Shown piece after piece: positions 20,406-64,000 of a stretch of 64,000 nucleotides of DNA. Source of the stretch: a virus. Taxonomy: Duplodnaviria; Heunggongvirae; Uroviricota; Caudoviricetes. The notes under the pieces are model-generated. The model saw only the letters and a program-made list of their open reading frames with translations, did no database searches and was not told where the DNA came from. Within the stretch, counting starts at the first letter, position 1. Each line of letters begins with the position of its first letter. Position numbers and translations under genes: made by a program. Where the stretch lies: IMG/VR virus record IMGVR_UViG_3300037471_001733, positions 22,201 through 86,200 of that record, one strand, 5' to 3'.

Positions 20406-20453
20406 CAGCGCGCATAACGGCGCCGTCCCGGCTTGAGGCGGCAGGAGATTCAG

Positions 20454-22262
20454 ATGTCAGCACAAGACTTGATTGTTAGGATCAACGCAGCCGCCCAGGT
20501 GGCCCCGGAGCAACTGCCCAAAGGGGCGCAGCCGCGCGACCACATGATTGCCTTTGAGTACACCGACGCCCACGGCACGCGCGGCTGCATGCGCATCCTG
20601 AACACCCGGGCGCGGCTGCTGGCCTTCGCTGAGCAGGTGCGGAAGAACGCGGCAGCATTCGACGGCAAGCCGCGCAGCAAGCCCGCCGGGCCGCGCAAGA
20701 TTGCCGGCGCATCCCCGCTTTCCACGGCGCGCGCACTGCTCAAGGATGGCGCGCGGGTTGAAGCCCTCGCAGCGCTTGAGGCGCGCGGCGGGGAGGTGTT
20801 TTTCGGCGCCGCTGGCGTGCCTGTGCTGCATCAGGTTGCACAGCGCGTGGAGCACGAGGGCCGCCGCTGGGTTGTCACGCGCTGCGCCGTTGATGGTCTC
20901 ATCTACCTCATTCACGAGGCGTCCGGGCTGTCAGCAGGCGGCAAGGGCTTGCCTGAGATGCGCAGCATTGCGGATGCCCTGGCGCGGCTTGAGCTCGTGC
21001 ACCGGGACGAGGCGGAAAACGGCTACCGGCAGCGAATGATTGCTGCGATCGAGCAAGCGGCGGATTACGACCAGCAGGCGGCGCGCGCGGCTTTCGAGGC
21101 GTGCGATGGTCTCAAGAGCAAGGATGCCGCGCCGGTGGCTCAGGAAGCGTACCAGCAGGCGCGCGCGCTGTCGGCGGCGCAGGTGGCGCCCGATGTCGAG
21201 CCGGCAGTAGATGCAGACCCCTCCCCGGTGGAAAGCGAAGCCGAGGCGGCACCCCCTGTAGCGGAAACGCCTGCGGCAGCTGACACCCCTGCAGCGGAAA
21301 TCGAGTCCAGCGCGCCGGCGGTTGCGCCAGCATCCCCTCCGGCGGATTCACAGGCAGGCGCTGCACCCCCTGCGATGGAAAGCGCGCAGCCTGCGCCGCT
21401 TGCCACCGCGCCAGGCCGATCGGATGCGCTCATCGCGCGGGCCATCGCTTGGGTTGCCGTAGTCTGGGGAACCGCCAGCGTGCCGAGCGTTGCGGACTAC
21501 CGCGCCGGCCGGTGCGATGACACATTCCCGTGGGCGGGCGGCAGCCGCGCCGCCGGCTATCTGACATGGGCCGACCTCATTGGCGAGTGCATGGCCGCGC
21601 TGGAGCGCGACGACAGCGCCGACCAGGCGGCACGAGACGCCGCACTGCAACCACCGACCCCCATCCGTAGGAAAGGCCCGCGACAACATGAGCAGCACAC
21701 CCCATCCCGTGCAACCCGCAGTGCCAACCGGCCGCGAGTGGTGGACCCGCGGGCTGCTCGACTGGCACGCCGAGGCGCTGCACGCCGCCCAGGAGATCGC
21801 CGCGCTGCGCGAATCACTGGCTGCGGAGCGCGCAATGGTCCGCGAGCTGCAGGAGGCGCTCGCTGCCCGCCGGCAGGCCGCTTGACCCCTTCCCGGGGAA
21901 TCACGGCGCCACAAGCTTGCCGCCCCTGGCGCGACGCCAGCGAAACCCGAGACTGCACCCATAAAAACCTGGAGCACAGCATGACCTACACCGAAGCCAT
22001 CCAAGCCCTGCGCGACGCTATTGCGCAGGCCCCGAAGGGTGAAAAGCTGCAAGCCTTCCAAGCCAAGCGGGAGAAGATAATAGGGGCAATGCCCAAGGTG
22101 GAAATCTGTGGCGGCGAGCAGTGCATCCGCTATCCCAAGGGCTACCGCTTTGACTGCGGTCGCGAGGTCCACACGGACTGGATGTGGCAACCGTTTGCCA
22201 GCGAGGAAATCGCCATGCGGCCTGGCAACCTGCCGTACATCCTGCGCATGCCGGCTGCCTGA
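20454..22262 (+). CDS. long open frame; N-terminal ~400 codons look like a real two-domain protein with Pro/Ala/Glu repeat linker; 3' end probably composite
   Basis: AGGAG RBS before ATG 20454. No in-frame stop for 1.8 kb; frame turns Arg-rich (junk-like) from about 21660 to 21980, then is in frame with the 93-aa ORF. Confidence 0.4.
   Translation: MSAQDLIVRINAAAQVAPEQLPKGAQPRDHMIAFEYTDAHGTRGCMRILNTRARLLAFAEQVRKNAAAFDGKPRSKPAGPRKIAGASPLSTARALLKDGARVEALAALEARGGEVFFGAAGVPVLHQVAQRVEHEGRRWVVTRCAVDGLIYLIHEASGLSAGGKGLPEMRSIADALARLELVHRDEAENGYRQRMIAAIEQAADYDQQAARAAFEACDGLKSKDAAPVAQEAYQQARALSAAQVAPDVEPAVDADPSPVESEAEAAPPVAETPAAADTPAAEIESSAPAVAPASPPADSQAGAAPPAMESAQPAPLATAPGRSDALIARAIAWVAVVWGTASVPSVADYRAGRCDDTFPWAGGSRAAGYLTWADLIGECMAALERDDSADQAARDAALQPPTPIRRKGPRQHEQHTPSRATRSANRPRVVDPRAARLARRGAARRPGDRRAARITGCGARNGPRAAGGARCPPAGRLTPSRGITAPQACRPWRDASETRDCTHKNLEHSMTYTEAIQALRDAIAQAPKGEKLQAFQAKREKIIGAMPKVEICGGEQCIRYPKGYRFDCGREVHTDWMWQPFASEEIAMRPGNLPYILRMPAA
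21218..21382 (+). repeat. five copies of CCCC(C)T-N4-6-(T/C)GGA(A/T)(A/T) motif inside the linker-coding region
   Basis: Copies starting 21218, 21252, 21286, 21334 (degenerate), 21366; 32-48 bp spacing; encode PSPVESE/PPVAET/TPAAEIE/SPPADSQ/PPAMESA. Confidence 0.55.
21688..21885 (+). CDS. hypothetical coiled-coil protein (65 aa), nested in another frame of the long ORF
   Basis: AGGAAAGG RBS; protein-like sequence (REWWTRGLLDWHAEALHAAQEIAALRESLAAERAMVRELQEAL); stop in TGACCCCTTCC motif. Confidence 0.5.
   Translation: MSSTPHPVQPAVPTGREWWTRGLLDWHAEALHAAQEIAALRESLAAERAMVRELQEALAARRQAA
21981..22262 (+). CDS. hypothetical protein (93 aa)
   Basis: RBS ctGGAGcacagcATG; protein-like composition. 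Confidence 0.5.
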   Translation: MTYTEAIQALRDAIAQAPKGEKLQAFQAKREKIIGAMPKVEICGGEQCIRYPKGYRFDCGREVHTDWMWQPFASEEIAMRPGNLPYILRMPAA

Positions 22263-46769: not shown

Positions 46770-47251
46770 TGCGCGGCGTGTTTGCCGACCTGCGTGACCG
46801 AGTGTTTGGCCGCCTGGTAGTTGTGGACATGCATGACAAGCTGCCCACCGGCCAAGTGCTGTGGCTGTGCCTGTGCGAGTGCGGTGAAACGAAGGCTGTT
46901 CAGAGCGGCCACTTGACAAGCGGCCGCATCAGTTCCTGCGGCTGCCTGAAGCGCGAGAGTCAGCCTGCGCACCTGTGGACCGCCGAGAACATCGCCAAGT
47001 CCAGTGCTGCCCGCCTGACCAAGCGCGCAGCACGCTTTGAGCAGGCCCGCCGCCGTGTATGGGGGCTTCTCACTCCTGTTGAGAGCATCGACCGCCAAGG
47101 TGAGGAGTTCTGGCGTTGCGCGTGTGTGTGTGGTGGAGAAAGAACTGCCTGGGCAGCCGACATACGCCGCGGCAAGACCATCTCTTGCGGCTGCAGTCGG
47201 CGTGGCTTGTCCTACGGCAAGGCTCATGACGGAGTCGCGACATGCGCGTGA
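46769..47251 (+). CDS. Cys-repeat protein (160 aa)
   Basis: Two repeats of W.C.C.CG....V....(L/I)..G...SCGC. Confidence 0.5.
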   Translation: MRGVFADLRDRVFGRLVVVDMHDKLPTGQVLWLCLCECGETKAVQSGHLTSGRISSCGCLKRESQPAHLWTAENIAKSSAARLTKRAARFEQARRRVWGLLTPVESIDRQGEEFWRCACVCGGERTAWAADIRRGKTISCGCSRRGLSYGKAHDGVATCA

Positions 47252-47649
47252 TGCTCATCGCCTGCTCGAAGGCCAAGCGCCCGCACGAAGCGGTTGCGGC
47301 CGAGCTCTACCAGGGCGACCTGTTCAAGAAGGCTCGCGCACTGGCCGAGAATCGCGGGGCCCGCTGGTTTGTGCTTTCGGCCAAGCATGGAGTGGTTTCG
47401 CCCGACCGCGTGCTGCACCCCTACGACGACACACTGGCGCATGCCACGCGGGACCGCCTCGCCGCCTGGAATGCGCTGGTGCTGTCTCAACTGGTCGAGG
47501 CCAAGCTGCTGGCTGAGCCGCTGGAGATCCTGGCTGGCCGCTGCTACCGCGGCTGGGCTTCATGCCTGGATGCGACTGTTCCGATGCGCGGTATGGGCAT
47601 CGGCAAGCAGAAGGCGTGGCTTGCCGAGCAACTGCGGAGGGCTGCGTGA
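47242..47649 (+). CDS. DUF6884-like protein (135 aa)
   Basis: VMLIACSKAKR...ELYQGDLFKKARALAE..GARWFVLSAKHGVVSPDRVLHPYDDTL matches DUF6884 pattern (memory). Confidence 0.5.
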   Translation: MRVMLIACSKAKRPHEAVAAELYQGDLFKKARALAENRGARWFVLSAKHGVVSPDRVLHPYDDTLAHATRDRLAAWNALVLSQLVEAKLLAEPLEILAGRCYRGWASCLDATVPMRGMGIGKQKAWLAEQLRRAA

Positions 47650-50366: not shown

Positions 50367-50432
50367 CCATCTAACTGATCCATGCCCGGCGCGGGCTGCG
50401 CGCCAATTCCACAGAAGACGGAGACGGAAACC

Positions 50433-51374
50433 ATGACTACTGCACTCGCTCTCATGAGCAACCGCCTGGCGCAACGCTTCGGCATGGTCGAAGACGCCGA
50501 GTTGATTCCTGTGCTCAAGGCAACTGCGTTCAAAGGTCAGGTCAGTGACGCGCAGATGACGGCGCTGCTGATCGTTGCCGATCAATACGGCCTGAATCCG
50601 TGGACCAAGGAAATCTACGCTTTCCCAGACCCGCAGAACGGCATCGTGCCGGTGGTCAGCGTTGACGGCTGGAGCCGCATCATCAATGAGCACCCCGCCT
50701 TCGACGGCATTGAGTTCGAGTTGTCCGGCAAGGGCGATGACATGGAGATGCTGTGCCGCATCTTCCGCAAGGACCGCAGCCGCCCGATCGCAGTGACGGA
50801 GTACTTGACCGAGTGCAAGCGTGAAACGAAGCCTTGGAAGTCTCACCCGCGACGCATGCTGCGTCACAAGGCTGAGATCCAATGCGCCCGATTGGCCTTC
50901 GGCTTCGCTGGGCTCCACGACCACGACGAGGCGGAGCGCATTGTGGAAGCATCGTCTGGCGCACCGAAGAACATGGGGGCAGCCCAGGTGGTCGAGGCCG
51001 CCGCAGCTGCGGAAATGCCGCTCGGCCTGCTGGAGTCAGCCGAGAGCGCTGCGACCGAAGGGGTGGCCATCTATCAGGAATTCTGGAAGTCAACCGGCCC
51101 GGAAAACCGCAAGGCGCTGGCTGGCCACCATGCGCGGCTGAAGCAAGCAGCCATTGACGCCGACGCGGCGCGCACGGTGGAGATGCCCACGACCGGCGGC
51201 CAAGCCGAGCAGCCCACGCTGGACCTGGTGGCGCTGGAGCGGCGCATCGGCAGCTGCAACGACGCTCAGGTGTTGCTGCTCATTGCCGACGACGTGGCCA
51301 CGCTGCCCGAGGGTGAGGATCGCGCGCGGCTGGAGAAGTTGATCGCGGTGCGCGGCGAAGCGCTGGAGGGCTGA
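50433..51374 (+). CDS. bet: single-strand annealing protein, lambda Bet (Red-beta) homolog
   Basis: Long near-identical blocks to lambda Bet from memory: LLIVADQYGLNPWTKEIYAFPD.QNGIVPVV.VDGWSRIINE, HP.RMLRHKA.IQCARLAFGFAG..D.DEAERI. Confidence 0.9.
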   Translation: MTTALALMSNRLAQRFGMVEDAELIPVLKATAFKGQVSDAQMTALLIVADQYGLNPWTKEIYAFPDPQNGIVPVVSVDGWSRIINEHPAFDGIEFELSGKGDDMEMLCRIFRKDRSRPIAVTEYLTECKRETKPWKSHPRRMLRHKAEIQCARLAFGFAGLHDHDEAERIVEASSGAPKNMGAAQVVEAAAAAEMPLGLLESAESAATEGVAIYQEFWKSTGPENRKALAGHHARLKQAAIDADAARTVEMPTTGGQAEQPTLDLVALERRIGSCNDAQVLLLIADDVATLPEGEDRARLEKLIAVRGEALEG

Positions 51375-51377
51375 TCT

Positions 51378-52064
51378 ATGGCGCTAATCGTCCACACCGA
51401 CCCGCAGGGTAGTGAGGCGTGGCTCGCGGCACGCCGCGGCATCCCGACCGGCAGCCGTTTCAAGGATTGCCGTGACTACCTAAAGCCCACGGCAGCCGAG
51501 GTCAAGGCCGGCGCCACGCGCGGCAAGCCCTCCGCGAAGCTGCTGGGCTATGCGATGGATCTGGCGCGCGAGCGGGTCGGTGGCCATGTGCCTCCCGTGT
51601 TCCAGACCGCCGCGATGCGTACCGGCCATATCGAGGAGCCAAAAGCACGACTCGCCTACGAGGAAGAGACCGGCAACATCGTGATCGAAGCCGGCTTCAT
51701 CACGACGGAAGACCGGCGCTGGGGCGTGTCGGTGGACGGCCTCGTGAAGCCCAAGGGTGGAATCGAGGTGAAGACTATGGTGAGCAGCGCCACGCTGTTC
51801 AAGGCCGTGGTCGAAGGCGACATCAGTGAGTACATCGACCAGATCAACGGCGCGATCCTGCTGCTTGAACTGGACTGGCTCGACCTTGTGCTCTGGGCGC
51901 CCGACCTGGCGCACCTGGGGCGCGGGCTCACCATCCGCCGCATCTGGCGTGACGAAGCTGCGATCCGAGCACTGGAAGCGGACCTGCTGACCTTCGTGGC
52001 GCTGGTCAATGACTTCGAGGCCGCGCTGCGTGCGCCGGCAGTGGAAACCGAAGGAGCCTTCTGA
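51378..52064 (+). CDS. YqaJ-type (lambda-Exo-fold) recombination exonuclease
   Basis: QGSEAWLAARRGIPTGSRF N-terminus, ...SVDGL....GIEVKT PD-(D/E)XK core; directly downstream of bet as in lambda. Confidence 0.75.
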   Translation: MALIVHTDPQGSEAWLAARRGIPTGSRFKDCRDYLKPTAAEVKAGATRGKPSAKLLGYAMDLARERVGGHVPPVFQTAAMRTGHIEEPKARLAYEEETGNIVIEAGFITTEDRRWGVSVDGLVKPKGGIEVKTMVSSATLFKAVVEGDISEYIDQINGAILLLELDWLDLVLWAPDLAHLGRGLTIRRIWRDEAAIRALEADLLTFVALVNDFEAALRAPAVETEGAF

Positions 52065-52321: not shown

Positions 52322-52341
52322 ACACTTTTCGGGCGATCCCA

Positions 52342-52397
52342 GCGTGATGAGCTTTTTCCAATCTTCGTCTCCTCCCTAGCGGGCTTGCTCATCACGC
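52342..52397 (+). promoter_or_regulatory. perfect 11-bp inverted repeat with 34-nt pyrimidine-rich loop in the leader of the deazaguanine cassette
   Basis: GCGTGATGAGC (52342-52) / GCTCATCACGC (52387-97); loop contains TCTCCTCCC. Confidence 0.45.
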
Positions 52398-52484
52398 GCA
52401 GCTTCGGCTGCCGCCTTTCTTCTTTCTGCGGCGAACAACAGCACGACGGGGTCTGCTTCCTCCCTGTACTCCTCCTTACCCGTC

Positions 52485-53357
52485 GTGCGGCGGCGTGTGC
52501 TGCCAGCCGCTCTTTCTTTTGATGGCAACTGCGAAAACCCCGGGGCTACGAGCGCGGCCAGCAGAGCCGCGCCGCCAGCCCCACCAACCAACTACAGCGA
52601 GATTCACGTGATCCACTACCACGGACTGCCGATTACGCCGGACACGGCAGCAGAGCGTGCTATTGCTGGCGGCCATGCGTTTGTGTCATTCGCGCACCCT
52701 GAGCAATTGGGTCTCGCTGCGGCTGTGGCGCAATCATTCGCCATTGATAACGGCGCGTTCTCGGCTTGGCGGGCCGGCCGTCCGGTAACGGACTGGACGC
52801 CTTTCTACGAATGGGCTGCCGCAGCCAAGCGCATCCCTGGCTGCGACTTCGCCGTCATACCTGATGTCATTGACGGCACTGAGGCTGACAACGATGCGTT
52901 GCTTGCCGAGTGGCCGCTGCCCAACTGGTTCGGGGCGCCCGTGTGGCACATGAACGAGGGCCTGGATCGCCTGGAGCGCTTGGCCACCGTCTTCCCTCGC
53001 GTGTGCATCGGCAGTTCTGGCGAGTTCGCAATGGTGGGAACGCCGACGTGGTGGGGCCAGATCGCCCGCGCCATGCGTGTTGTGTGCGACGACGATGGGC
53101 GCCCGATGTGCAGGCTCCATGGCCTGCGCATGCTGGACCCGGAAGTGTTCAAGCATCTCCCGTTTTCCAGCGCAGACAGCACGAATATCGGCCGCAACAT
53201 TGGCATCGATCAAGCTTGGCGCGGCACCTATACGCCGCCGACGAAAGAGGCGCGGGCAGCTGTCATGCGCTCGCGCATTGAGGCTGAGAACGCGCCAGCA
53301 CGCTGGGCGTTTCGCATCCCCGAGTTCCATCCTGAAGACCAAGGGAGCCTGCTGTGA
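52485..53357 (+). CDS. dpdA: DpdA-like DNA-guanine transglycosylase candidate (TGT superfamily); start uncertain (GTG 52485 or GTG 52608)
   Basis: IDNGAFSAW resembles the TGT DSGGFQ loop; ATGA-type coupling into queC; assignment rests mainly on context with queC/E/D. Confidence 0.55.
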   Translation: MRRRVLPAALSFDGNCENPGATSAASRAAPPAPPTNYSEIHVIHYHGLPITPDTAAERAIAGGHAFVSFAHPEQLGLAAAVAQSFAIDNGAFSAWRAGRPVTDWTPFYEWAAAAKRIPGCDFAVIPDVIDGTEADNDALLAEWPLPNWFGAPVWHMNEGLDRLERLATVFPRVCIGSSGEFAMVGTPTWWGQIARAMRVVCDDDGRPMCRLHGLRMLDPEVFKHLPFSSADSTNIGRNIGIDQAWRGTYTPPTKEARAAVMRSRIEAENAPARWAFRIPEFHPEDQGSLL

Positions 53358-53890
53358 GCAAAGTTATCCTGTTGTCCGGCGGCCTGGATTCCGCCCTGTG
53401 CTTGGCTCGCTACGGCGCCGACTTGGCCATTGGCTTCAATTACGGACAGCCGCATGCGATTGAGTTGGCCCATGCCGAGCGCATTGCAAGGCAGCACGGC
53501 GTGCCTTTCGAGATCCATGCGCTGCCGACCATGCCGCGCGTCAACGACGTCGTCTTCGCCGGCCGCAATGCGGTGATGCTGACGGCAGCCGCAGCCATTG
53601 CTCAGGCGCGCGGCCACGACGCGGTGTTGATCGGCTGCAACTTCTCGGATGCCACCCGGTTTCCTGACTGCCGGCCGGAATTCATTCGCAACATCAGCAA
53701 GGCGCTTGAGTCGGCATATGGCGTAAGCGTCTGCGCGCCGCTGCTGTTGTCCACCAAGACGCAGATAGTGGCAGAGGCCAAGCAACGCGGCATCACGGAC
53801 ACCTGGACCTGTTACGCGCCCACAACTGATGGTCAGCAGTGCGGCCAGTGCTACTCCTGCCAGGGCATCGCCTCAGCGAGCGCGTCATGA
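53354..53890 (+). CDS. queC: 7-cyano-7-deazaguanine (preQ0) synthase QueC, compact form (178 aa)
   Basis: MSKVILLSGGLDSALC PP-loop, FAGRNAVMLTAAA, C-terminal C..(10)..CGQCYSC zinc motif. Confidence 0.8.
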   Translation: MSKVILLSGGLDSALCLARYGADLAIGFNYGQPHAIELAHAERIARQHGVPFEIHALPTMPRVNDVVFAGRNAVMLTAAAAIAQARGHDAVLIGCNFSDATRFPDCRPEFIRNISKALESAYGVSVCAPLLLSTKTQIVAEAKQRGITDTWTCYAPTTDGQQCGQCYSCQGIASASAS

Positions 53891-54507
53891 CCTATACCGT
53901 CAAGGAGATCTTCTACACGCTGCAGGGCGAGGGCTTGCACGCCGGGCGCCCAGCGGTGTTCTGCCGCTTCGCCGGGTGCAACCTGTGGAGCGGGCGTGAG
54001 CAGGACAGGAGCAAGGCGGCATGCCGTTTCTGCGACACCGAGTTCCGCGGCGGCACGAAGTACCGCACGCCCGAGGATTTGGCTGATGCCATTGAGCAGG
54101 CGTGGGCGCCGCAGGTGGTGGCCCGACGCATGGTGGTGCTCACCGGCGGCGAGCCGGCGCTGCAGGTGGATCAGGCGCTTGTGCACTTGCTGCAGGCCCG
54201 CGGGTTCTATGTCGCCATCGAGACGAACGGCACCAAGGAACTGCCGCAGGGTCTGGATTGGGTGTGCGTGAGCCCCAAGGGCGATGAGCCGCTGCGTGTG
54301 GTGCATGGCAACGAGCTGAAGCTGGTGTACCCGCAGATGCTGGCACTGCCGCAGCGGTTTGAGGAGTTGGCCTTCGACCACTTCCTTCTGCAGCCCATGG
54401 ACGGCCCGTTCCTTGAGGCCAACACCCAGGCTGCCATCGAGTTCTGCATGGGCAACCCAAAGTGGCGGCTCTCGGTGCAGACCCACAAGTACATCGGAGT
54501 GCGCTGA
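53887..54507 (+). CDS. queE: 7-carboxy-7-deazaguanine synthase QueE (radical SAM)
   Basis: ATGA overlap; EIFYTLQGEGLHAGRPAVFCRFAGCNLWSG...CRFCDT, VLTGGEP, IETNGT, LLQPMDG...W.LS.QTHK. Confidence 0.85.
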   Translation: MTYTVKEIFYTLQGEGLHAGRPAVFCRFAGCNLWSGREQDRSKAACRFCDTEFRGGTKYRTPEDLADAIEQAWAPQVVARRMVVLTGGEPALQVDQALVHLLQARGFYVAIETNGTKELPQGLDWVCVSPKGDEPLRVVHGNELKLVYPQMLALPQRFEELAFDHFLLQPMDGPFLEANTQAAIEFCMGNPKWRLSVQTHKYIGVR

Positions 54508-54509
54508 CC

Positions 54510-54965
54510 ATGCCCACCACCATCATGAAACGCCTGGAGTTCGACGCCGGGCACCGCATCCCCAACCACGCCAGCAAGTGCCGCAACCTGCACGGCCACA
54601 GGTACGCGCTGGAAATCACGCTGGTGGGCGAGCCCATCGACGCCCCCGGCACCAGCAGCCACGGGATGCTGGAGGACTTCAGCGACGTGAAGCGCTTGGC
54701 GATGGAGCACCTCGTGGAGCCCTGGGACCACGCTTTCCTGGTGTACGAGGGCGACACGCAGGTGCTGGCGCTGCTGGCCGCGCTGCCCGGCCACAAGACC
54801 GTGGTGCTGCCGCGCGTGCCCACGGCCGAGAACCTCGTGGCGCTGGCCTTTGAAACGCTGGCGCCGATCTACACCGACCGCTTCGGCAACGGGCTGCGCC
54901 TGGAGCGCGTGCGCCTGTGGGAAACGCCGACGTGCTGGGCGGACTTCAGTTCCACAACCAACTGA
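54510..54965 (+). CDS. queD: 6-carboxy-5,6,7,8-tetrahydropterin synthase QueD
   Basis: LEFDAGHRIPNHASKCRNLHGHRY...WDHAFL...ENL pattern of PTPS/QueD. Confidence 0.8.
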   Translation: MPTTIMKRLEFDAGHRIPNHASKCRNLHGHRYALEITLVGEPIDAPGTSSHGMLEDFSDVKRLAMEHLVEPWDHAFLVYEGDTQVLALLAALPGHKTVVLPRVPTAENLVALAFETLAPIYTDRFGNGLRLERVRLWETPTCWADFSSTTN

Positions 54966-54973
54966 CGAGCACC

Positions 54974-56038
54974 ATGTTCAAAAACTTGACCTTGTTGCGC
55001 ATCAGCAGCGACTGGCTGCCCGATGCCATCGCTGCCGAGGACCAGCTGGCGCGCGAGCCCTTCACCGCCTGCGGTGCGACACAACCCGCGAGTGCTGGCT
55101 GGGTGCCGCCGCGAGGTGTGCCGCATGCGCCGCTGCTGGAGGTCATCGGCGGCCATTGGATTCTGTCGTTGATGTCAGAGCGCCGGCTGCTGCCCGGATC
55201 TGTCATCAAGGACCGCGTTGCCGAGATGACTGCCGAGTTCGAGAAGGCCAACGGCTACAAGGTCGGCAAGCGCCAGCGCAAGGAACTGGTGGCGCAGGCC
55301 GAGCAGGAGTTGCTGCCGAAGGCATTCACGAAACGCTCGCTGACCAAGGTGTGGCTCGACCCCCGCGCCCGCCTCCTAGCGGTCGACACCGGCAGCGCCA
55401 GCGCGGCCGAGTCTGTGGTTTCGATGCTGGTCAAGAGCCTGGACGGCTTTGGTGTGCAGCCTGTGACGACTTGGCTGGCGCCGGCCGGCGCGATGGCGGC
55501 TTGGATCAGCGAAGGCTGCGCGCCAAGCGGCTTCAGCCTGGACCGCGAGTGCGAGCTCAAGTCCACGGACGAGATGAAGAGCGTCGTCCGCTACGCCCGC
55601 CACTCGCTGGACAACGATGACGTGCGCCGCCACATCGCATCCGGCAAGCGCCCGACGCGCCTGGCGCTGTCCTGGGGCGACCGCGTGGCGTTCACCTTGA
55701 CCGATGGGCTTGTGCTCAAGCGCATCGAGTTTCTTGACGTCGCCATGGAAGGCCGCTCCGAAGTGGACGCGGCAGAGGCCTTTGACGCTGATGCTGCTAT
55801 CGCCTGCGGCGAGCTCAGCCGCCTGATACCGGATCTGCTGGCGGCGCTTGGTAACGAGGCTGAGCAGTCGCGCATCCACGAGGAAGAATCCAGCCCCAAG
55901 GCTGCGCTACAGGACCCCGCAGTGCCGAATTTGGACCACATCAGTACATCAGCGCTCTACTTGGCAGCGCAGGTGGAGCAGCAGATGGCTCCGATACGCG
56001 CGGCCCTGTCCGAGACTGCAGGAGCCGCCAAGGCATGA
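54974..56038 (+). CDS. rdgC: recombination-associated protein RdgC homolog (354 aa)
   Basis: MFKNLTLLRISSDWLP...AREPFTACGATQPASAGWVPP...ERRLLPGSVIKD typical RdgC N-terminus. Confidence 0.75.
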   Translation: MFKNLTLLRISSDWLPDAIAAEDQLAREPFTACGATQPASAGWVPPRGVPHAPLLEVIGGHWILSLMSERRLLPGSVIKDRVAEMTAEFEKANGYKVGKRQRKELVAQAEQELLPKAFTKRSLTKVWLDPRARLLAVDTGSASAAESVVSMLVKSLDGFGVQPVTTWLAPAGAMAAWISEGCAPSGFSLDRECELKSTDEMKSVVRYARHSLDNDDVRRHIASGKRPTRLALSWGDRVAFTLTDGLVLKRIEFLDVAMEGRSEVDAAEAFDADAAIACGELSRLIPDLLAALGNEAEQSRIHEEESSPKAALQDPAVPNLDHISTSALYLAAQVEQQMAPIRAALSETAGAAKA

Positions 56039-56616
56039 GCCTGCACATCGTCCCGATCACGCTTGAGCAGGCCAAGAGGTTCGTGCGCCGGCACCACCGC
56101 CACAACAAGCCGCCCACGGGCTGGAAGTTCGGCGTGGGCCTGTGCCACAGCGCCGGGCCGCTAGTGGGAGTGGCGACCGCTGGGCGCCCGGTGTCGCGCG
56201 AGATCCAGGAGCGCGAGCCGCTGACGCTGGAGGTCAACCGCACGTGCACGGACGGCACGCGCAACGCCAACTCGATGCTCTACGGCGCGATCTGGCGCGC
56301 GGCCAAGGCCCTGGGCTACACGCGCGCCATCACCTACATCCAAGGCAACGAGACGGGCGCCTCGCTCAAGGCTGCGGGCTGGGTGAAGGTGCGCGACCTA
56401 GATGCGCGCGGCTCCTGGAAGGAGTCGAGCAAGAAGTTGGCGCACCTGCGCGACGACGAGGGCACGGGCGGCGTGGCGCGGCAGCTGTGGGAAATCCGCG
56501 CTGCGACCGCCGGCCCAGTGGTGCTGCCCGACCTGGGCGCCGACGACGATCTGACAGACGACACAGAAGACCCCACGGGCGACTTGTTCGCCGAAGCTGA
56601 AGGAGAGCCCGCATGA
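56035..56616 (+). CDS. XF1762-family / GNAT-fold-like protein (193 aa) with acidic tail
   Basis: ATGA overlap; ITLEQAKRFVRRHHRHNKPP.GWKFGVG...LVGVATAGRPVSR...LEVNRTC...NANSMLYGA..RAAKALGY...TY....E.GASLKAAGW. Confidence 0.55.
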   Translation: MSLHIVPITLEQAKRFVRRHHRHNKPPTGWKFGVGLCHSAGPLVGVATAGRPVSREIQEREPLTLEVNRTCTDGTRNANSMLYGAIWRAAKALGYTRAITYIQGNETGASLKAAGWVKVRDLDARGSWKESSKKLAHLRDDEGTGGVARQLWEIRAATAGPVVLPDLGADDDLTDDTEDPTGDLFAEAEGEPA

Positions 56617-62555: not shown

Positions 62556-62957
62556 TCAGGGGCGCGCCTTGCGCTCAATGTCCTCAGCCGTTTCCGGCCG
62601 GCGCGCGATCCAGCCCTGCGGCTCGTCGTGCTCGCTGACAGTGGGTTTCGCGGGCAGGGATTCGCCCGGGGCGGTTGGGGCCGGCATCCAGTGCGTGACG
62701 TTGAACATTTCATAGCCGCAGCTCATCCACTGGCCGTCGATGTAGAGGCCCAGCAGCTTGCGCGTCGGGTTGCGCAGGTCGGGCGAATAGAAGATCACGT
62801 CCTCGCGGTCCACCGGCAGCCGCTCGCTGACCGGAATCCAAGGTTCCGGCTGCGTCTGCGGGGCGGCGGCCAGCACGCTTTCCGCCCAATCCAGCAGCTT
62901 CAGTTCGTCCGCGTAGAACAGTTCGACGGACAGCTTCGGAAGCGTCGGTGTAGTCAT
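62556..62957 (-). CDS. DUF551-domain protein (133 aa)
   Basis: WIPVSERLPVDREDVIFY...GLYIDGQWMS....FNVTHWMPAP is the DUF551 pattern. Confidence 0.65.
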   Translation of the reverse strand: MTTPTLPKLSVELFYADELKLLDWAESVLAAAPQTQPEPWIPVSERLPVDREDVIFYSPDLRNPTRKLLGLYIDGQWMSCGYEMFNVTHWMPAPTAPGESLPAKPTVSEHDEPQGWIARRPETAEDIERKARP

Positions 62958-63559: not shown

Positions 63560-64000
63560 TCAAGTCGGGAAGGCGGTGTGCTCCACGCCATCCAGCAGGC
63601 GGCCGGCGGCCTTCTTGCCAACGTGGATTGCCGTGTCGCCGTCAGGCAGCGAGCGGCAGCGCACGGTCGGCCCGTAGACCTGGGCCAGCCGCTGCACTTC
63701 GCTCGCATCGCTGCCAGCACCCAGCCATTCTCCCCACTGCTTGAACAGGAACGGCACGCCGGCAGCTGCGCATTGGTCGCGCAGATCTCGGGCCCACTGC
63801 AGGTGCATCGGCCGCGCCTTCGGGCCGCTCTCGCCGCCGACGATGACCCAGCTGATGAGCGACAGCATCGCGGCGCTGGCACCGCTCTCCCCCCAGGGGC
63901 GCACTGTCCGCCGCAGGTCTACCGGTCCCAGCAGAGGCTCCATGGACAGGAACCGCACGCGCGCTGGCGTGGCCAGCAGCTTCGGCGCGTCGCGGTCGGC
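63560..64000 (-). CDS. phage Gp37/Gp68 family protein (DUF5131), C-terminal part; N-terminus beyond right edge
   Basis: VRFLSMEPLLGPVDL...WVIVGGESGPKARPMHLQWARDLRDQCAAAGVPFLFKQWGEW matches the DUF5131 signature; frame open to 64000. Confidence 0.7.
   Translation of the reverse strand, partial: ADRDAPKLLATPARVRFLSMEPLLGPVDLRRTVRPWGESGASAAMLSLISWVIVGGESGPKARPMHLQWARDLRDQCAAAGVPFLFKQWGEWLGAGSDASEVQRLAQVYGPTVRCRSLPDGDTAIHVGKKAAGRLLDGVEHTAFPT

What the first reader, a model, noticed from the sequence alone, without database searches (positions are those of the whole stretch)
52485..54965. dpdA-like + queC-queE-queD cassette: predicted 7-deazaguanine modification of the phage DNA
Four translationally coupled genes make up the cassette:
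- a TGT-superfamily-like protein (IDNGAFS loop);
- QueC (SGGLDS PP-loop, C-terminal Cys cluster);
- QueE (radical-SAM CxxxCxxC-type cluster, QTHK end);
- QueD (HRIPNH...HGHRY).

Established knowledge: phage DpdA plus preQ0-pathway genes replace guanine in DNA with 7-deazaguanine derivatives that block restriction (Hutinet et al. 2019, cited from memory).

No folE, queF or amidotransferase-QueC fusion is present in the window. The simplest prediction is therefore dPreQ0, made with help from host GTP cyclohydrolase I.

Two features are atypical. The DpdA-like ORF is short with an unclear start (GTG 52485 or 52608). QueC is only 178 aa, against about 230 aa in E. coli from memory.
Basis: partly seen in the sequence, partly recalled or inferred. 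Interest (0 to 1): 0.65.

Follow-up and report, generated by a model that had tools for sequence, protein, structure and literature searches.

The report
Phage 7-deazaguanine DNA-modification gene cassette
A temperate phage carries four coupled genes that most likely make a guanine analogue (preQ0 or its amide) and swap it into the phage's own DNA; this is a known kind of DNA modification, built here with an unusually small QueC enzyme.

Summary
Four coupled plus-strand genes encode a DpdA-family transglycosylase (52608-53357), a 178-aa QueC (53354-53890), a Cx14CxxC QueE (53887-54507) and QueD (54510-54965). They lie in the early recombination operon of a lambdoid-type phage.

The gene starts at GTG 52608, giving the family-standard 249 aa, so it is not unusually short.

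The small QueC is a genuine family. It keeps the QueC catalytic motifs but lacks about 20 residues of a pocket loop, as Cap9 does. In every context examined it sits beside a DpdA-type gene.

No folE, queF, amidotransferase or YhhQ is in the window.

Verdict: a 7-deazaguanine DNA-modification module is well supported by computation. The final base (dPreQ0 or dADG) and the extent of modification remain open. This is a known kind of system with a modestly new variant. Interest is moderate to low.

The parts
52608..53357 (+). DpdA-family (TGT-superfamily) DNA-guanine transglycosylase, 249 aa, GTG start
53354..53890 (+). Miniature QueC (7-cyano-7-deazaguanine synthase family), 178 aa, GTG start overlapping the dpdA stop
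   Evidence: Pfam QueC, E 1.8e-38. TIGR00364 118.9 bits, below its cut-off of 150.3. Family profile against PDB: QueC 99 and 96 bits, Cap9 63.6 bits. Motifs SGGLDS, YGQPHAIE, AGRN, FPDC, K135 and Cx9CxxCxxC are kept. E-to-R spacing is 34 in 31/31 family members, against 51-62 in 76 cellular QueCs. AF2 pLDDT 91.3.
53887..54507 (+). QueE, 7-carboxy-7-deazaguanine synthase, Cx14CxxC radical-SAM type, 206 aa
   Evidence: TIGR04508 317 bits, above its cut-off of 240. 260 bits to Burkholderia multivorans QueE 4NJG over the full length.
54510..54965 (+). QueD, 6-carboxytetrahydropterin synthase, 151 aa
   Evidence: Pfam PTPS, E 8.6e-30. TIGR03367 88.2 bits, against a cut-off of 89.25. It has the QueD signature CxxxHGH (CRNLHGH), not the DpdL signature LxxxHRHxF (PMC10516641). 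E. coli QueD 4NTM, E 5.9e-6.
52322..52607 (+). Non-coding leader upstream of dpdA, which includes the 5' extension wrongly included in the longest ORF
   Evidence: No codon-position GC bias in 52485-52607. One terminator-like hairpin at 52398-52411, not above chance. No sigma-70 consensus. No riboswitch.
47242..47649 (+). Standalone DUF6884 protein, 135 aa, in the same operon; possible but weakly supported DpdC-like partner (dPreQ0 to dADG in DNA)
   Evidence: Pfam DUF6884, E 3.5e-37. DpdC is a DUF6884 protein (PMC11888242). PADLOC DpdC matches only at E 5e-8, over residues 11-74. Against the idea: Rosebush-type phages have a DUF6884 gene yet carry dPreQ0 (PMC6884629).

Best explanation
This is an early-operon module of a temperate phage that replaces a fraction of the guanines in double-stranded DNA with a 7-deazaguanine base after replication.

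Proposed pathway:
1. Host GTP cyclohydrolase I makes dihydroneopterin triphosphate. This is inferred, because no folE lies in the window.
2. Phage QueD converts it to CPH4.
3. Phage QueE (Cx14CxxC radical-SAM) converts CPH4 to 7-carboxy-7-deazaguanine (CDG).
4. The miniature QueC uses ATP and ammonia to convert CDG to the amide (ADG) and probably on to the nitrile preQ0.
5. The 249-aa DpdA-family barrel excises guanine through an aspartate-ribosyl intermediate (D190, assisted by H171). It inserts the deazapurine, which is read by D47 and D86.

The base found in DNA should be dPreQ0, dADG or both. The extent of modification is unknown.

What is shown: gene identities, folds, motif conservation and gene linkage. 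What is inferred: every chemical step, the DNA target and any anti-restriction benefit.
For: - Gene identities.
- Invariant D47, H171, D190 and S191 and near-invariant D86 lie at the C-terminal ends of strands b3, b7, b8 and b4.
- Homology to the DpdAs of phages 7-11 and MED16, whose DNA contains dADG (PMC6884629, PMC8306585).
- Comparative linkage. The mini-QueC lies next to a DpdA-type gene in all 9 places examined in 8 contig look-ups, plus the window. Close DpdA homologues are paired with no partner, with the preQ0-transporter family Vut_1/YhhQ, with mini-QueC plus Vut_1, or with mini-QueC plus QueE plus QueD. This pattern is what a transglycosylase fed from the preQ0 pool would show.
- The QueC catalytic signature defined by mutagenesis (PMC13329287) is retained.
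- The four genes are translationally coupled.
Against: - There is no chemical evidence.
- DpdA has no Pfam or NCBIfam hit and no sequence or profile hit in the PDB. hhalign against E. coli TGT fails.
- QueC scores below the NCBIfam equivalog cut-off. It lacks about 20 residues of the pocket loop that holds the conserved L75. It also has Phe where E. coli needs an aromatic Tyr, and Y131F is only partly active (PMC13329287).
- The nearest characterised relatives modify only 0.02-0.13% of G. In MED16 the dADG had no noticeable effect on the restriction enzymes tested (PMC8306585).
- The phage may extend beyond the window, so the absence of folE is shown for the window only.
Confidence: 0.75

Rival explanations
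1. The machinery is the same, but the base that ends up in DNA is the amide dADG rather than the nitrile dPreQ0. There are three possible routes. The lid-less mini-QueC may stop at, or release, ADG. This DpdA clade may prefer ADG. Or dPreQ0 in DNA may be hydrated by a phage enzyme such as the DUF6884 protein at 47242-47649.
For: - The only two characterised phages with this DpdA clade (7-11 and MED16) contain dADG and essentially no dPreQ0, although they have no known DpdC (PMC6884629, PMC8306585).
- The mini-QueC differs from every sampled cellular QueC in the pocket loop and carries Y-to-F in the YPDC motif.
- A DUF6884 gene, the DpdC domain family (PMC11888242), lies in the same operon.
- A QueC homologue proposed to stop at ADG exists in Campylobacter phages (PMC10516641).
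Against: - The mini-QueC keeps every residue shown to be essential in E. coli QueC except the conservative Y-to-F (PMC13329287).
- The DUF6884 protein matches DpdC models only over about 60 residues.
- DUF6884 genes also occur in Rosebush-type phages, whose DNA is 28% dPreQ0 with only traces of dADG (PMC6884629).
- tblastn found no DUF6884 homologue in any Salmonella or Pantoea phage record, hence none in 7-11 or MED16.
Confidence: 0.3
2. The pair works like Cap9/Cap10 of type IV CBASS. The miniature QueC ligates CDG to an amine other than ammonia, such as a protein N-terminus or a small amine. The TGT-like barrel then binds or transfers that conjugate. The result would be protein deazaguanylation, or a new N-substituted 7-amido-7-deazaguanine, rather than plain preQ0 insertion.
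For: - The mini-QueC aligns with Cap9 (191 aa) almost without gaps. It lacks the same loop that canonical QueC has.
- BLASTP finds Cap9 against the mini-QueC (29% over 175 aa) but reports nothing against B. subtilis QueC.
- The H171/D190 pair resembles Cap10's H226/D248 pair (bioRxiv 10.1101/2025.04.06.647259).
Against: - No CD-NTase or other CBASS gene is in the window.
- The motifs are of the canonical QueC type (YGQPHAIE with His; FPDCRPEF; CY...), not the Cap9 type (PMC13329287).
- Cap9 scores the same against the mini-QueC profile and the cellular QueC profile, 62.6 against 60.4 bits.
- The context is a phage recombination operon with QueE and QueD, or with the YhhQ transporter in relatives.
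Confidence: 0.05
3. The cassette serves RNA rather than DNA. It would be an auxiliary metabolic module that boosts host preQ0/queuosine supply for tRNA, with the barrel acting as a tRNA transglycosylase.
For: Phages that carry que genes without any DpdA exist (PMC6884629). PHROG and GenBank annotators label the family 'queuine tRNA-ribosyltransferase'.
Against: - The protein is a bare 249-aa barrel that ends shortly after strand b8. No Pfam, NCBIfam or PDB sequence match to TGT was found, and by eye there is no Cys/His cluster for the structural zinc site.
- Phage DpdA did not complement an E. coli tgt deletion (PMC6884629).
- Relatives of this clade are associated with modified DNA (PMC6884629, PMC8306585).
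- No queF, queA or queG is in the window.
Confidence: 0.06

Closest known systems
[quoted passage not shown] 2019, 'second group')
   Same: A small DpdA barrel is clustered with QueC, QueE and QueD and no amidotransferase or QueF. The predicted and measured product there is dPreQ0 (28-32% of G), which protects against restriction. BFVD structural neighbours include a Rosebush-type DpdA.
   Different: - Those phages also encode FolE, and they are virulent or actinobacterial phages.
- Their QueC is only 34-37% identical to this one and of normal length.
- The DpdA here belongs to a different sequence clade.
'DpdA-only' phages: Salmonella phage 7-11, Pantoea phage MED16, and P22-like or lambdoid phages BTP1, SPN3UB, SfI and HK106
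   Same: Same DpdA sequence clade (31-54% identity). The gene sits in the same kind of place, the early or recombination region of temperate phages. 7-11 and MED16 DNA carry dADG.
   Different: Those phages encode no precursor-synthesis genes and depend on the host pool. Measured modification is only 0.02-0.13% of G. Here the DpdA gene is translationally coupled to queC-queE-queD.
Bacterial Dpd modification machinery (DpdA/DpdB/DpdC, Salmonella Montevideo; PDB 7UI4)
   Different: - No DpdB ATPase is present.
- The protein is 249 aa against 413 aa.
- By eye there is no Cys/His cluster for the zinc site.
- There is no restriction operon.
- The DUF6884 protein is 135 aa, against about 300 aa for DpdC, and matches it only partly.
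Type IV CBASS Cap9 (QueC-like) and Cap10 (TGT-like)
   Different: - There is no CD-NTase or effector.
- The QueC motifs here are of the canonical type.
- The context is a phage operon with QueE and QueD.
- Cap10 is 325 aa with remodelled dimer and CD-NTase interfaces.
Campylobacter phage CP220-type system (DpdA3 plus QueC*, dADG at 100% of G)
   Same: A phage QueC homologue proposed to end at the amide; 7-deazaguanine in DNA.
   Different: The DpdA subfamily is different (DpdA3). Replacement of G is complete. FolE is encoded. No sequence relationship to CP220 was examined here.

Membership tests
Phage DpdA (DNA-guanine transglycosylase, TGT superfamily) | TGT-like (beta/alpha)8 barrel fold | tested here: met
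Phage DpdA (DNA-guanine transglycosylase, TGT superfamily) | Base-recognising Asp and nucleophilic Asp (S. Montevideo DpdA D95/D256; Cap10 D73/D248) | tested here: met
   D47 (DNGAF) and D190 (SADS) are invariant in 54 diverse sequences. D86 is conserved in at least 90% and H171 is invariant. They lie at the C-terminal ends of b3, b8, b4 and b7 in the model. The equivalence rests on motif and topology; no residue-level superposition was possible.
Phage DpdA (DNA-guanine transglycosylase, TGT superfamily) | Sequence homology to DpdAs of phages with measured 7-deazaguanine DNA | tested here: met
   tblastn: MED16 39% (E 2e-42) and 7-11 31.8% (E 2e-24). PHROG 887, E 1.2e-68.
Phage DpdA (DNA-guanine transglycosylase, TGT superfamily) | Exchanges guanine in duplex DNA for preQ0 or a related base | not testable with these tools
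   Needs LC-MS/MS of DNA or an in vitro exchange assay.
Canonical TGT / bacterial DpdA | Pfam TGT (PF01702) match and structural zinc site | tested here: not met
   No Pfam, NCBIfam or PDB sequence or profile hit. The protein ends about 55 residues after b8, and by eye it has no Cys/His cluster. Cap10 also lacks the zinc site (bioRxiv 2025.04.06.647259).
DpdA2 (Vibrio phage nt-1 type) | Similarity to nt-1 DpdA2; absence of the conserved His | tested here: not met
   An uncharacterised 464-aa nt-1 protein (R9TGF0), not confirmed to be DpdA2, is only a marginal BFVD hit (E 0.01, TM 0.43). This family has an invariant His171. Assignment to DpdA1 or DpdA2 under the published nomenclature was not resolved, because the supplementary tables are not held.
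QueC (preQ0 synthase, PF06508 cluster 1) | SGGxDS PP-loop, YxQxHxxE, RN of VPxRN, conserved Lys, Cys4 zinc motif | tested here: met
   SGGLDS, YGQPHAIE, AGRN, K135 and C153-x9-C163-x2-C166-x2-C169 are invariant across 32 family members. The motif list is from PMC13329287.
QueC (preQ0 synthase, PF06508 cluster 1) | YPDC motif with Tyr | tested here: inconclusive
   FPDC, with Phe invariant in the clade. E. coli Y131F keeps partial activity, whereas Y131A has none (PMC13329287).
QueC (preQ0 synthase, PF06508 cluster 1) | Canonical length (about 220 aa) with the pocket loop that carries L75 | tested here: not met
   178 aa. E-to-R spacing is 34, against 51-62 in 76 cellular QueCs. TIGR00364 scores 118.9 bits, below its cut-off of 150.3. 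The Pfam gathering score is passed.
QueC (preQ0 synthase, PF06508 cluster 1) | Converts CDG to preQ0 (nitrile) with two ATP | not testable with these tools
   Needs an enzyme assay or complementation of an E. coli queC deletion.
Cap9/Cap10 (type IV CBASS) | Operon with a CD-NTase bearing an M(G/S)G(G/S)GG N-terminus | tested here: not met
   No CD-NTase family appeared in any Pfam scan of the window's ORFs.
Cap9/Cap10 (type IV CBASS) | Cap9-type motif variants (Y/FxQx5E without His, YxDC, CEx6C) | tested here: not met
   The window protein has the canonical variants. Cap9 scores 62.6 bits against the mini-QueC profile and 60.4 bits against the cellular profile.
Cap9/Cap10 (type IV CBASS) | Compact QueC of about 185 aa lacking the loop; zinc-less TGT barrel | tested here: met
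QueE (CDG synthase, Cx14CxxC type) | Equivalog model above cut-off; Cx14CxxC cluster | tested here: met
   TIGR04508 317 bits, above 240. C31-x14-C46-x2-C49. 260 bits to 4NJG.
QueD (CPH4 synthase) as opposed to DpdL (CDG decarboxylase) | CxxxHGH (QueD) as opposed to LxxxHRHxF (DpdL) | tested here: met
   CRNLHGH is present. Pfam PTPS, E 8.6e-30. TIGR03367 scores 88.2 bits, just under its cut-off of 89.25.
DpdC (dPreQ0-DNA to dADG-DNA) | Full-length match to DpdC models | tested here: not met
   The ORF at 47242-47649 is a complete DUF6884 domain. It matches PADLOC DpdC only over residues 11-74 (E 5e-8), and it matches PDC-M57A far better.

The most novel reading that the evidence does not exclude
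The miniature, lid-less QueC may be an amide-forming enzyme. It would release ADG, or couple CDG to another amine. The 7-11/MED16-type DpdA clade would then insert that amide directly. This would explain the unexplained dADG in phages that lack DpdC. It would also make this phage pair the closest metabolic relative, and possibly the evolutionary source, of the Cap9/Cap10 protein-deazaguanylation pair of type IV CBASS.
Probability: 0.15. Interest if true: 0.6.

Novelty: new variant of a known kind. Interest (0 to 1): 0.35.

Why it matters
Phage 7-deazaguanine DNA modification is an established counter-defence, so the cassette itself is not a surprise. Three points go beyond the catalogue.

1. 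It physically links the large 'DpdA-only' clade of temperate proteobacterial phages to dedicated precursor synthesis. The chemistry of that clade is poorly understood: trace dADG with no known amidohydrolase.
2. It exposes a conserved miniature QueC clade that travels with DpdA genes and has the same compact architecture as the CBASS protein Cap9. The clade is absent from cultured phages at more than 40% identity.
3. The four genes form a small, self-contained set. Expressing it in E. coli would settle whether this clade inserts preQ0 or ADG.

A Mom-like gene two genes downstream suggests that the phage may modify both G and A.

Tried and rejected
- DpdL instead of QueD: rejected, because the CxxxHGH motif is present.
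- DpdA start at 52485: rejected on homologue lengths and codon-position GC.
- Sequence and profile searches of the DpdA family against the PDB, and hhalign against E. coli TGT: nothing found. Only the fold comparison was informative.
- Foldseek against the PDB: generic TIM barrels, not discriminating.
- The search for related loci with the mini-QueC profile. In IMG/VR there was only one close relative, L008.
- Look-up of the window's own contig by the JGI-called 286-aa protein: not on record. Cluster look-up gave no origin.
- Riboswitch or other RNA search of 44-64 kb: nothing.
- Promoter and terminator scan: nothing above chance.
- DUF6884 as the missing DpdC of 7-11 and MED16: no Salmonella or Pantoea phage record holds a homologue, and it is present in dPreQ0 phages, so it is kept only as a weak lead.
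- Cap9 affinity test by profiles and NJ tree: inconclusive.
- Supplementary tables of PMC10516641, sought for the DpdA1/DpdA2 labels: not held.
- Host identity is only inferred. DpdA homologues at 76-79% identity are named from Pseudomonas. The terminase is 58-66% identical to those of Ralstonia, Halomonas and Klebsiella temperate phages.
Full report
**Observation**

- ORF1 matches PHROG 887 'queuine tRNA-ribosyltransferase' (E 1.2e-68). It matches no Pfam or NCBIfam model.
- ORF2 is Pfam QueC (E 1.8e-38).
- ORF3 is QueE of the Cx14CxxC type. TIGR04508 scores 317 bits against a cut-off of 240, and it scores 260 bits against the Burkholderia multivorans QueE structure 4NJG.
- ORF4 is QueD/PTPS (E 8.6e-30). 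It carries the QueD signature CxxxHGH, not the DpdL signature LxxxHRHxF described in PMC10516641.

The junctions are GTGA (53354-53357), ATGA (53887-53890) and TGAccATG (54505-54512), with Shine-Dalgarno-like GGAG/GGGAG upstream of two of the starts. Translational coupling is therefore plausible.

I make two corrections. First, the radical-SAM cluster is C31-x14-C46-x2-C49, not CxxxCxxC. Second, the first gene starts at GTG 52608. Of 119 close homologues, 92 are 249 aa, and nearly all begin (M/V/L)IHYHG. The stretch 52485-52607 shows no codon-position GC bias: 0.66/0.66/0.66, against 0.65/0.53/0.72 in the gene body.

**Setting**

The window is phage DNA.
- The minus strand carries the large terminase, portal, protease and major capsid genes at about 7.8-13.5 kb, and a replication initiator at 41.6-42.7 kb.
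- It also carries the small terminase, head-completion and connector genes.
- The plus-strand operon from about 44 kb carries RecT (50382-51374), a YqaJ exonuclease (51378-52064), the cassette, RdgC (54974-56038) and a Mom-like gene.

This is the early or recombination arm of a lambdoid-type temperate phage. The same DpdA clade sits in a similar place in a P. fluorescens prophage, downstream of RecT and YqaJ and just upstream of the integrase, and next to ead/Ea22-family genes in BTP1 and other P22-like Salmonella phages.

No cultured phage resembles the cassette at the DNA level beyond short 66-76% patches. The host was not identified. DpdA homologues at 76-79% identity are named from Pseudomonas. 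The terminase is 58-66% identical to those of Ralstonia, Halomonas and Klebsiella temperate phages.

**Is ORF1 a DpdA?**

Sequence methods alone do not connect it to TGT.
- A phmmer search and a 52-sequence profile found nothing in the PDB.
- hhalign against E. coli TGT failed.

An AlphaFold model built on 54 diverse homologues is confident (pLDDT 94.5, pTM 0.91) and has eight beta/alpha units. Foldseek against the PDB returned generic TIM barrels.

Across the family, D47 (DNGAF), H171 (LHGLR), D190 and S191 (SADS) are invariant, and D86 (PDVIDG), H114 and E117 are nearly so. In the model they lie at the C-terminal ends of strands 3, 7, 8, 4 and 5. TGT, DpdA and Cap10 place their base-reading aspartates, the Tyr/His partner and the nucleophilic aspartate in those positions (PMC10164549; bioRxiv 10.1101/2025.04.06.647259). 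This equivalence is inferred from topology and motif, because I could not superpose coordinates.

By tblastn the protein is 60% identical to a gene of Acinetobacter phage AB3P2. It is 50-54% identical to genes of BTP1, SPN3UB and SfI, 39% to Pantoea phage MED16 and 31.8% to Salmonella phage 7-11. The last two phages have measured 7-deazaguanine in their DNA: dADG at 0.13% and 0.02% of G, with almost no dPreQ0 (PMC8306585, PMC6884629).

The family is sizeable, with 747 clusters at 50% identity. A length of 249 aa is its norm, so the 'short DpdA' is not atypical.

**The small QueC**

The 178-aa protein is not a truncation. It represents a family of 171-180-aa proteins with invariant SGGxDS, YGQxHxxE, GRN, FPDCR..F, a conserved Lys and Cx9CxxCxxC. 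These are the motifs that PMC13329287 defined for canonical QueC by mutagenesis. The one exception is Phe in place of the YPDC tyrosine; the E. coli Y131F mutant keeps partial activity.

What is missing is about 20 residues between the YxQxHxxE and RN motifs. The spacing is 34 in 31 of 31 family members, against 51-62 in 76 cellular QueCs and mostly 53-64 in IMG/VR viral QueCs. In E. coli that loop carries L75 'in the pocket' (PMC13329287).

The family profile scores 99 and 96 bits against the two QueC crystal structures, in both cases broken into two stretches. It scores 63.6 bits against Cap9 of type IV CBASS in one nearly gapless stretch. The AlphaFold model is confident (pLDDT 91.3) and shows five strands and five to six helices. 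Its weakest segment is at residues 61-70, exactly where the loop is shortened.

The protein falls below the NCBIfam QueC equivalog cut-off (118.9 against 150.3). No cultured phage has a QueC more than 37.6% identical to it.

**Gene linkage**

Eight mini-QueC-bearing places came from seven contig look-ups, and a ninth (L008) came from the IMG/VR scan. In all nine, as in the window, the mini-QueC lies next to a small DpdA-type gene.
- Seven places carry the window's DpdA family, confirmed with a local profile search.
- Two carry a roughly 200-aa protein with the same DNGAF / PDVVG / DSxDG motif pattern that the profile does not detect.

The third partner is QueE plus QueD in L002, as in the window. 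It is a Vut_1/YhhQ protein, the preQ0 transporter family, in L003-L006 and L168-L170.

Conversely, close DpdA homologues (76-78% identical) occur in several arrangements:
- alone (L001, L174)
- with Vut_1 (L175)
- with a nucleoside deoxyribosyltransferase plus Vut_1 (L173)

A transglycosylase core with interchangeable 'supply' genes, all from the preQ0 pathway or its salvage, is what a DNA deazaguanine insertase would be expected to show. The window carries the fullest supply set seen for this clade.

GC3 rises along the cassette: 0.72, 0.78, 0.87 and 0.94. Taken with the close similarity of QueE to a Burkholderia enzyme, this suggests that queE and queD were added from a cellular source to an older phage dpdA-queC pair.

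**What is absent**

Pfam scans of about 105 called ORFs across the window found no GTP cyclohydrolase I (either type), QueF, glutamine amidotransferase, ArcS, Vut_1, DpdB/ParB or CD-NTase. tblastn with E. coli FolE gave no hit at E<=10. No riboswitch was found. Host FolE is therefore required, unless a gene lies beyond the window.

**Mechanism and its limits**

The best-supported reading is post-replicative exchange of guanine in DNA for a 7-deazaguanine made by QueD, QueE and the mini-QueC from host dihydroneopterin triphosphate.

Which base ends up in DNA is open. Gene content alone predicts dPreQ0, by analogy with Rosebush and CAjan. But the only characterised members of this DpdA clade carry dADG, the QueC is structurally unusual, and a standalone DUF6884 gene lies at 47242-47649. 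DUF6884 is the domain family of DpdC, which hydrates dPreQ0 in DNA (PMC11888242, PMC10164549).

That last lead is weak for three reasons:
- PADLOC DpdC models match only residues 11-74.
- Rosebush-type phages also have a DUF6884 gene, yet they are dPreQ0 phages.
- No Salmonella or Pantoea phage record holds a homologue, so 7-11 and MED16 have none.

The extent of modification and any protective value are unknown. In MED16 the trace dADG did not block the restriction enzymes tested (PMC8306585).

**The Cap9/Cap10 resemblance**

The resemblance is real at the level of architecture: a compact QueC, a zinc-less barrel and a His/Asp pair. It is not supported as membership. There is no CD-NTase, the QueC motifs are of the canonical type, and Cap9 scores equally against the mini-QueC and cellular QueC profiles (62.6 against 60.4 bits). 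In a rough NJ tree Cap9 branches only deeply near the mini-QueC clade. I keep it as the most novel reading, at low probability.

**Verdict**

The product identity (dPreQ0 or dADG) remains unresolved. This is a known kind of system. It is a modest new variant because of the miniature, DpdA-linked QueC and because a previously 'solo' DpdA clade is here coupled to precursor synthesis.

Noticed in passing
window 56035-56616 (+): A Mom-like / XF1762-family gene overlaps the rdgC stop by ATGA, two genes downstream of queD. It matches phrog_1384 'Mom-like DNA modification protein' (E 6.5e-37) and NF045478 (184 bits). Pfam Mom scores only E 6e-5, below its cut-off. The phage may also modify adenine.
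   Followed up: partly
window 47242-47649 (+): A standalone 135-aa DUF6884 protein, the domain family of DpdC. It matches the PADLOC candidate PDC-M57A strongly (E 2.7e-29) and DpdC models only over residues 11-74. Homologues occur in Rosebush-type and many other actinophages.
   Followed up: partly
window 52608-54965: GC at third codon positions rises gene by gene: dpdA 0.72, queC 0.78, queE 0.87, queD 0.94. This suggests that queE and queD were acquired from a high-GC cellular source more recently than the dpdA-queC pair.
   Followed up: no
L169 2479-3090 and L170 4411-5004: Proteins of about 200 aa lie directly upstream of the mini-QueC and Vut_1. They carry DNGAF / PDVVG / H.GR / DS.DG motifs but are not detected by the DpdA family profile (E>0.01). 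They may be a second small DpdA-type family.
   Followed up: partly
L173 5747-6627; L175 5747-6229; L003 7136-7672; L168 5752-6243: Relatives of this DpdA are often followed by a Vut_1/YhhQ-family membrane protein, the preQ0 transporter family. In one case a nucleoside 2-deoxyribosyltransferase (PF05014) comes first. Why phages pair a QueC with a preQ0 importer is unexplained.
   Followed up: no
window 20433-22262 (+): A 609-aa ORF inside the phage region, between the packaging and replication modules, is probably the source of the STAND-type NTPase Pfam hits (nSTAND3, AAA_16). The pooled scan does not say which ORF matched. It has no PHROG match and may be a defence-like moron.
   Followed up: no
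window 54974-56038 (+), 50382-52064 (+): RdgC (E 1.8e-97) lies immediately after queD. RecT and a YqaJ exonuclease lie just upstream. The modification genes are embedded in the recombination module.
   Followed up: no
window 63560-63958 (-) and 62556-62957 (-): The DUF5131 (Gp37/Gp68 family) match covers only profile positions 155-243, so the gene may be truncated or mis-started. A DUF551 gene lies next to it. Both are on the opposite strand, at the end of the plus-strand operon.
   Followed up: no
window 52398-52411 (+): A GC-rich hairpin (GCAGC-TTCG-GCTGC) followed by a T-rich tail lies in the 286-nt non-coding leader upstream of dpdA. Such sites are not more frequent here than in shuffled sequence.
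   Followed up: no
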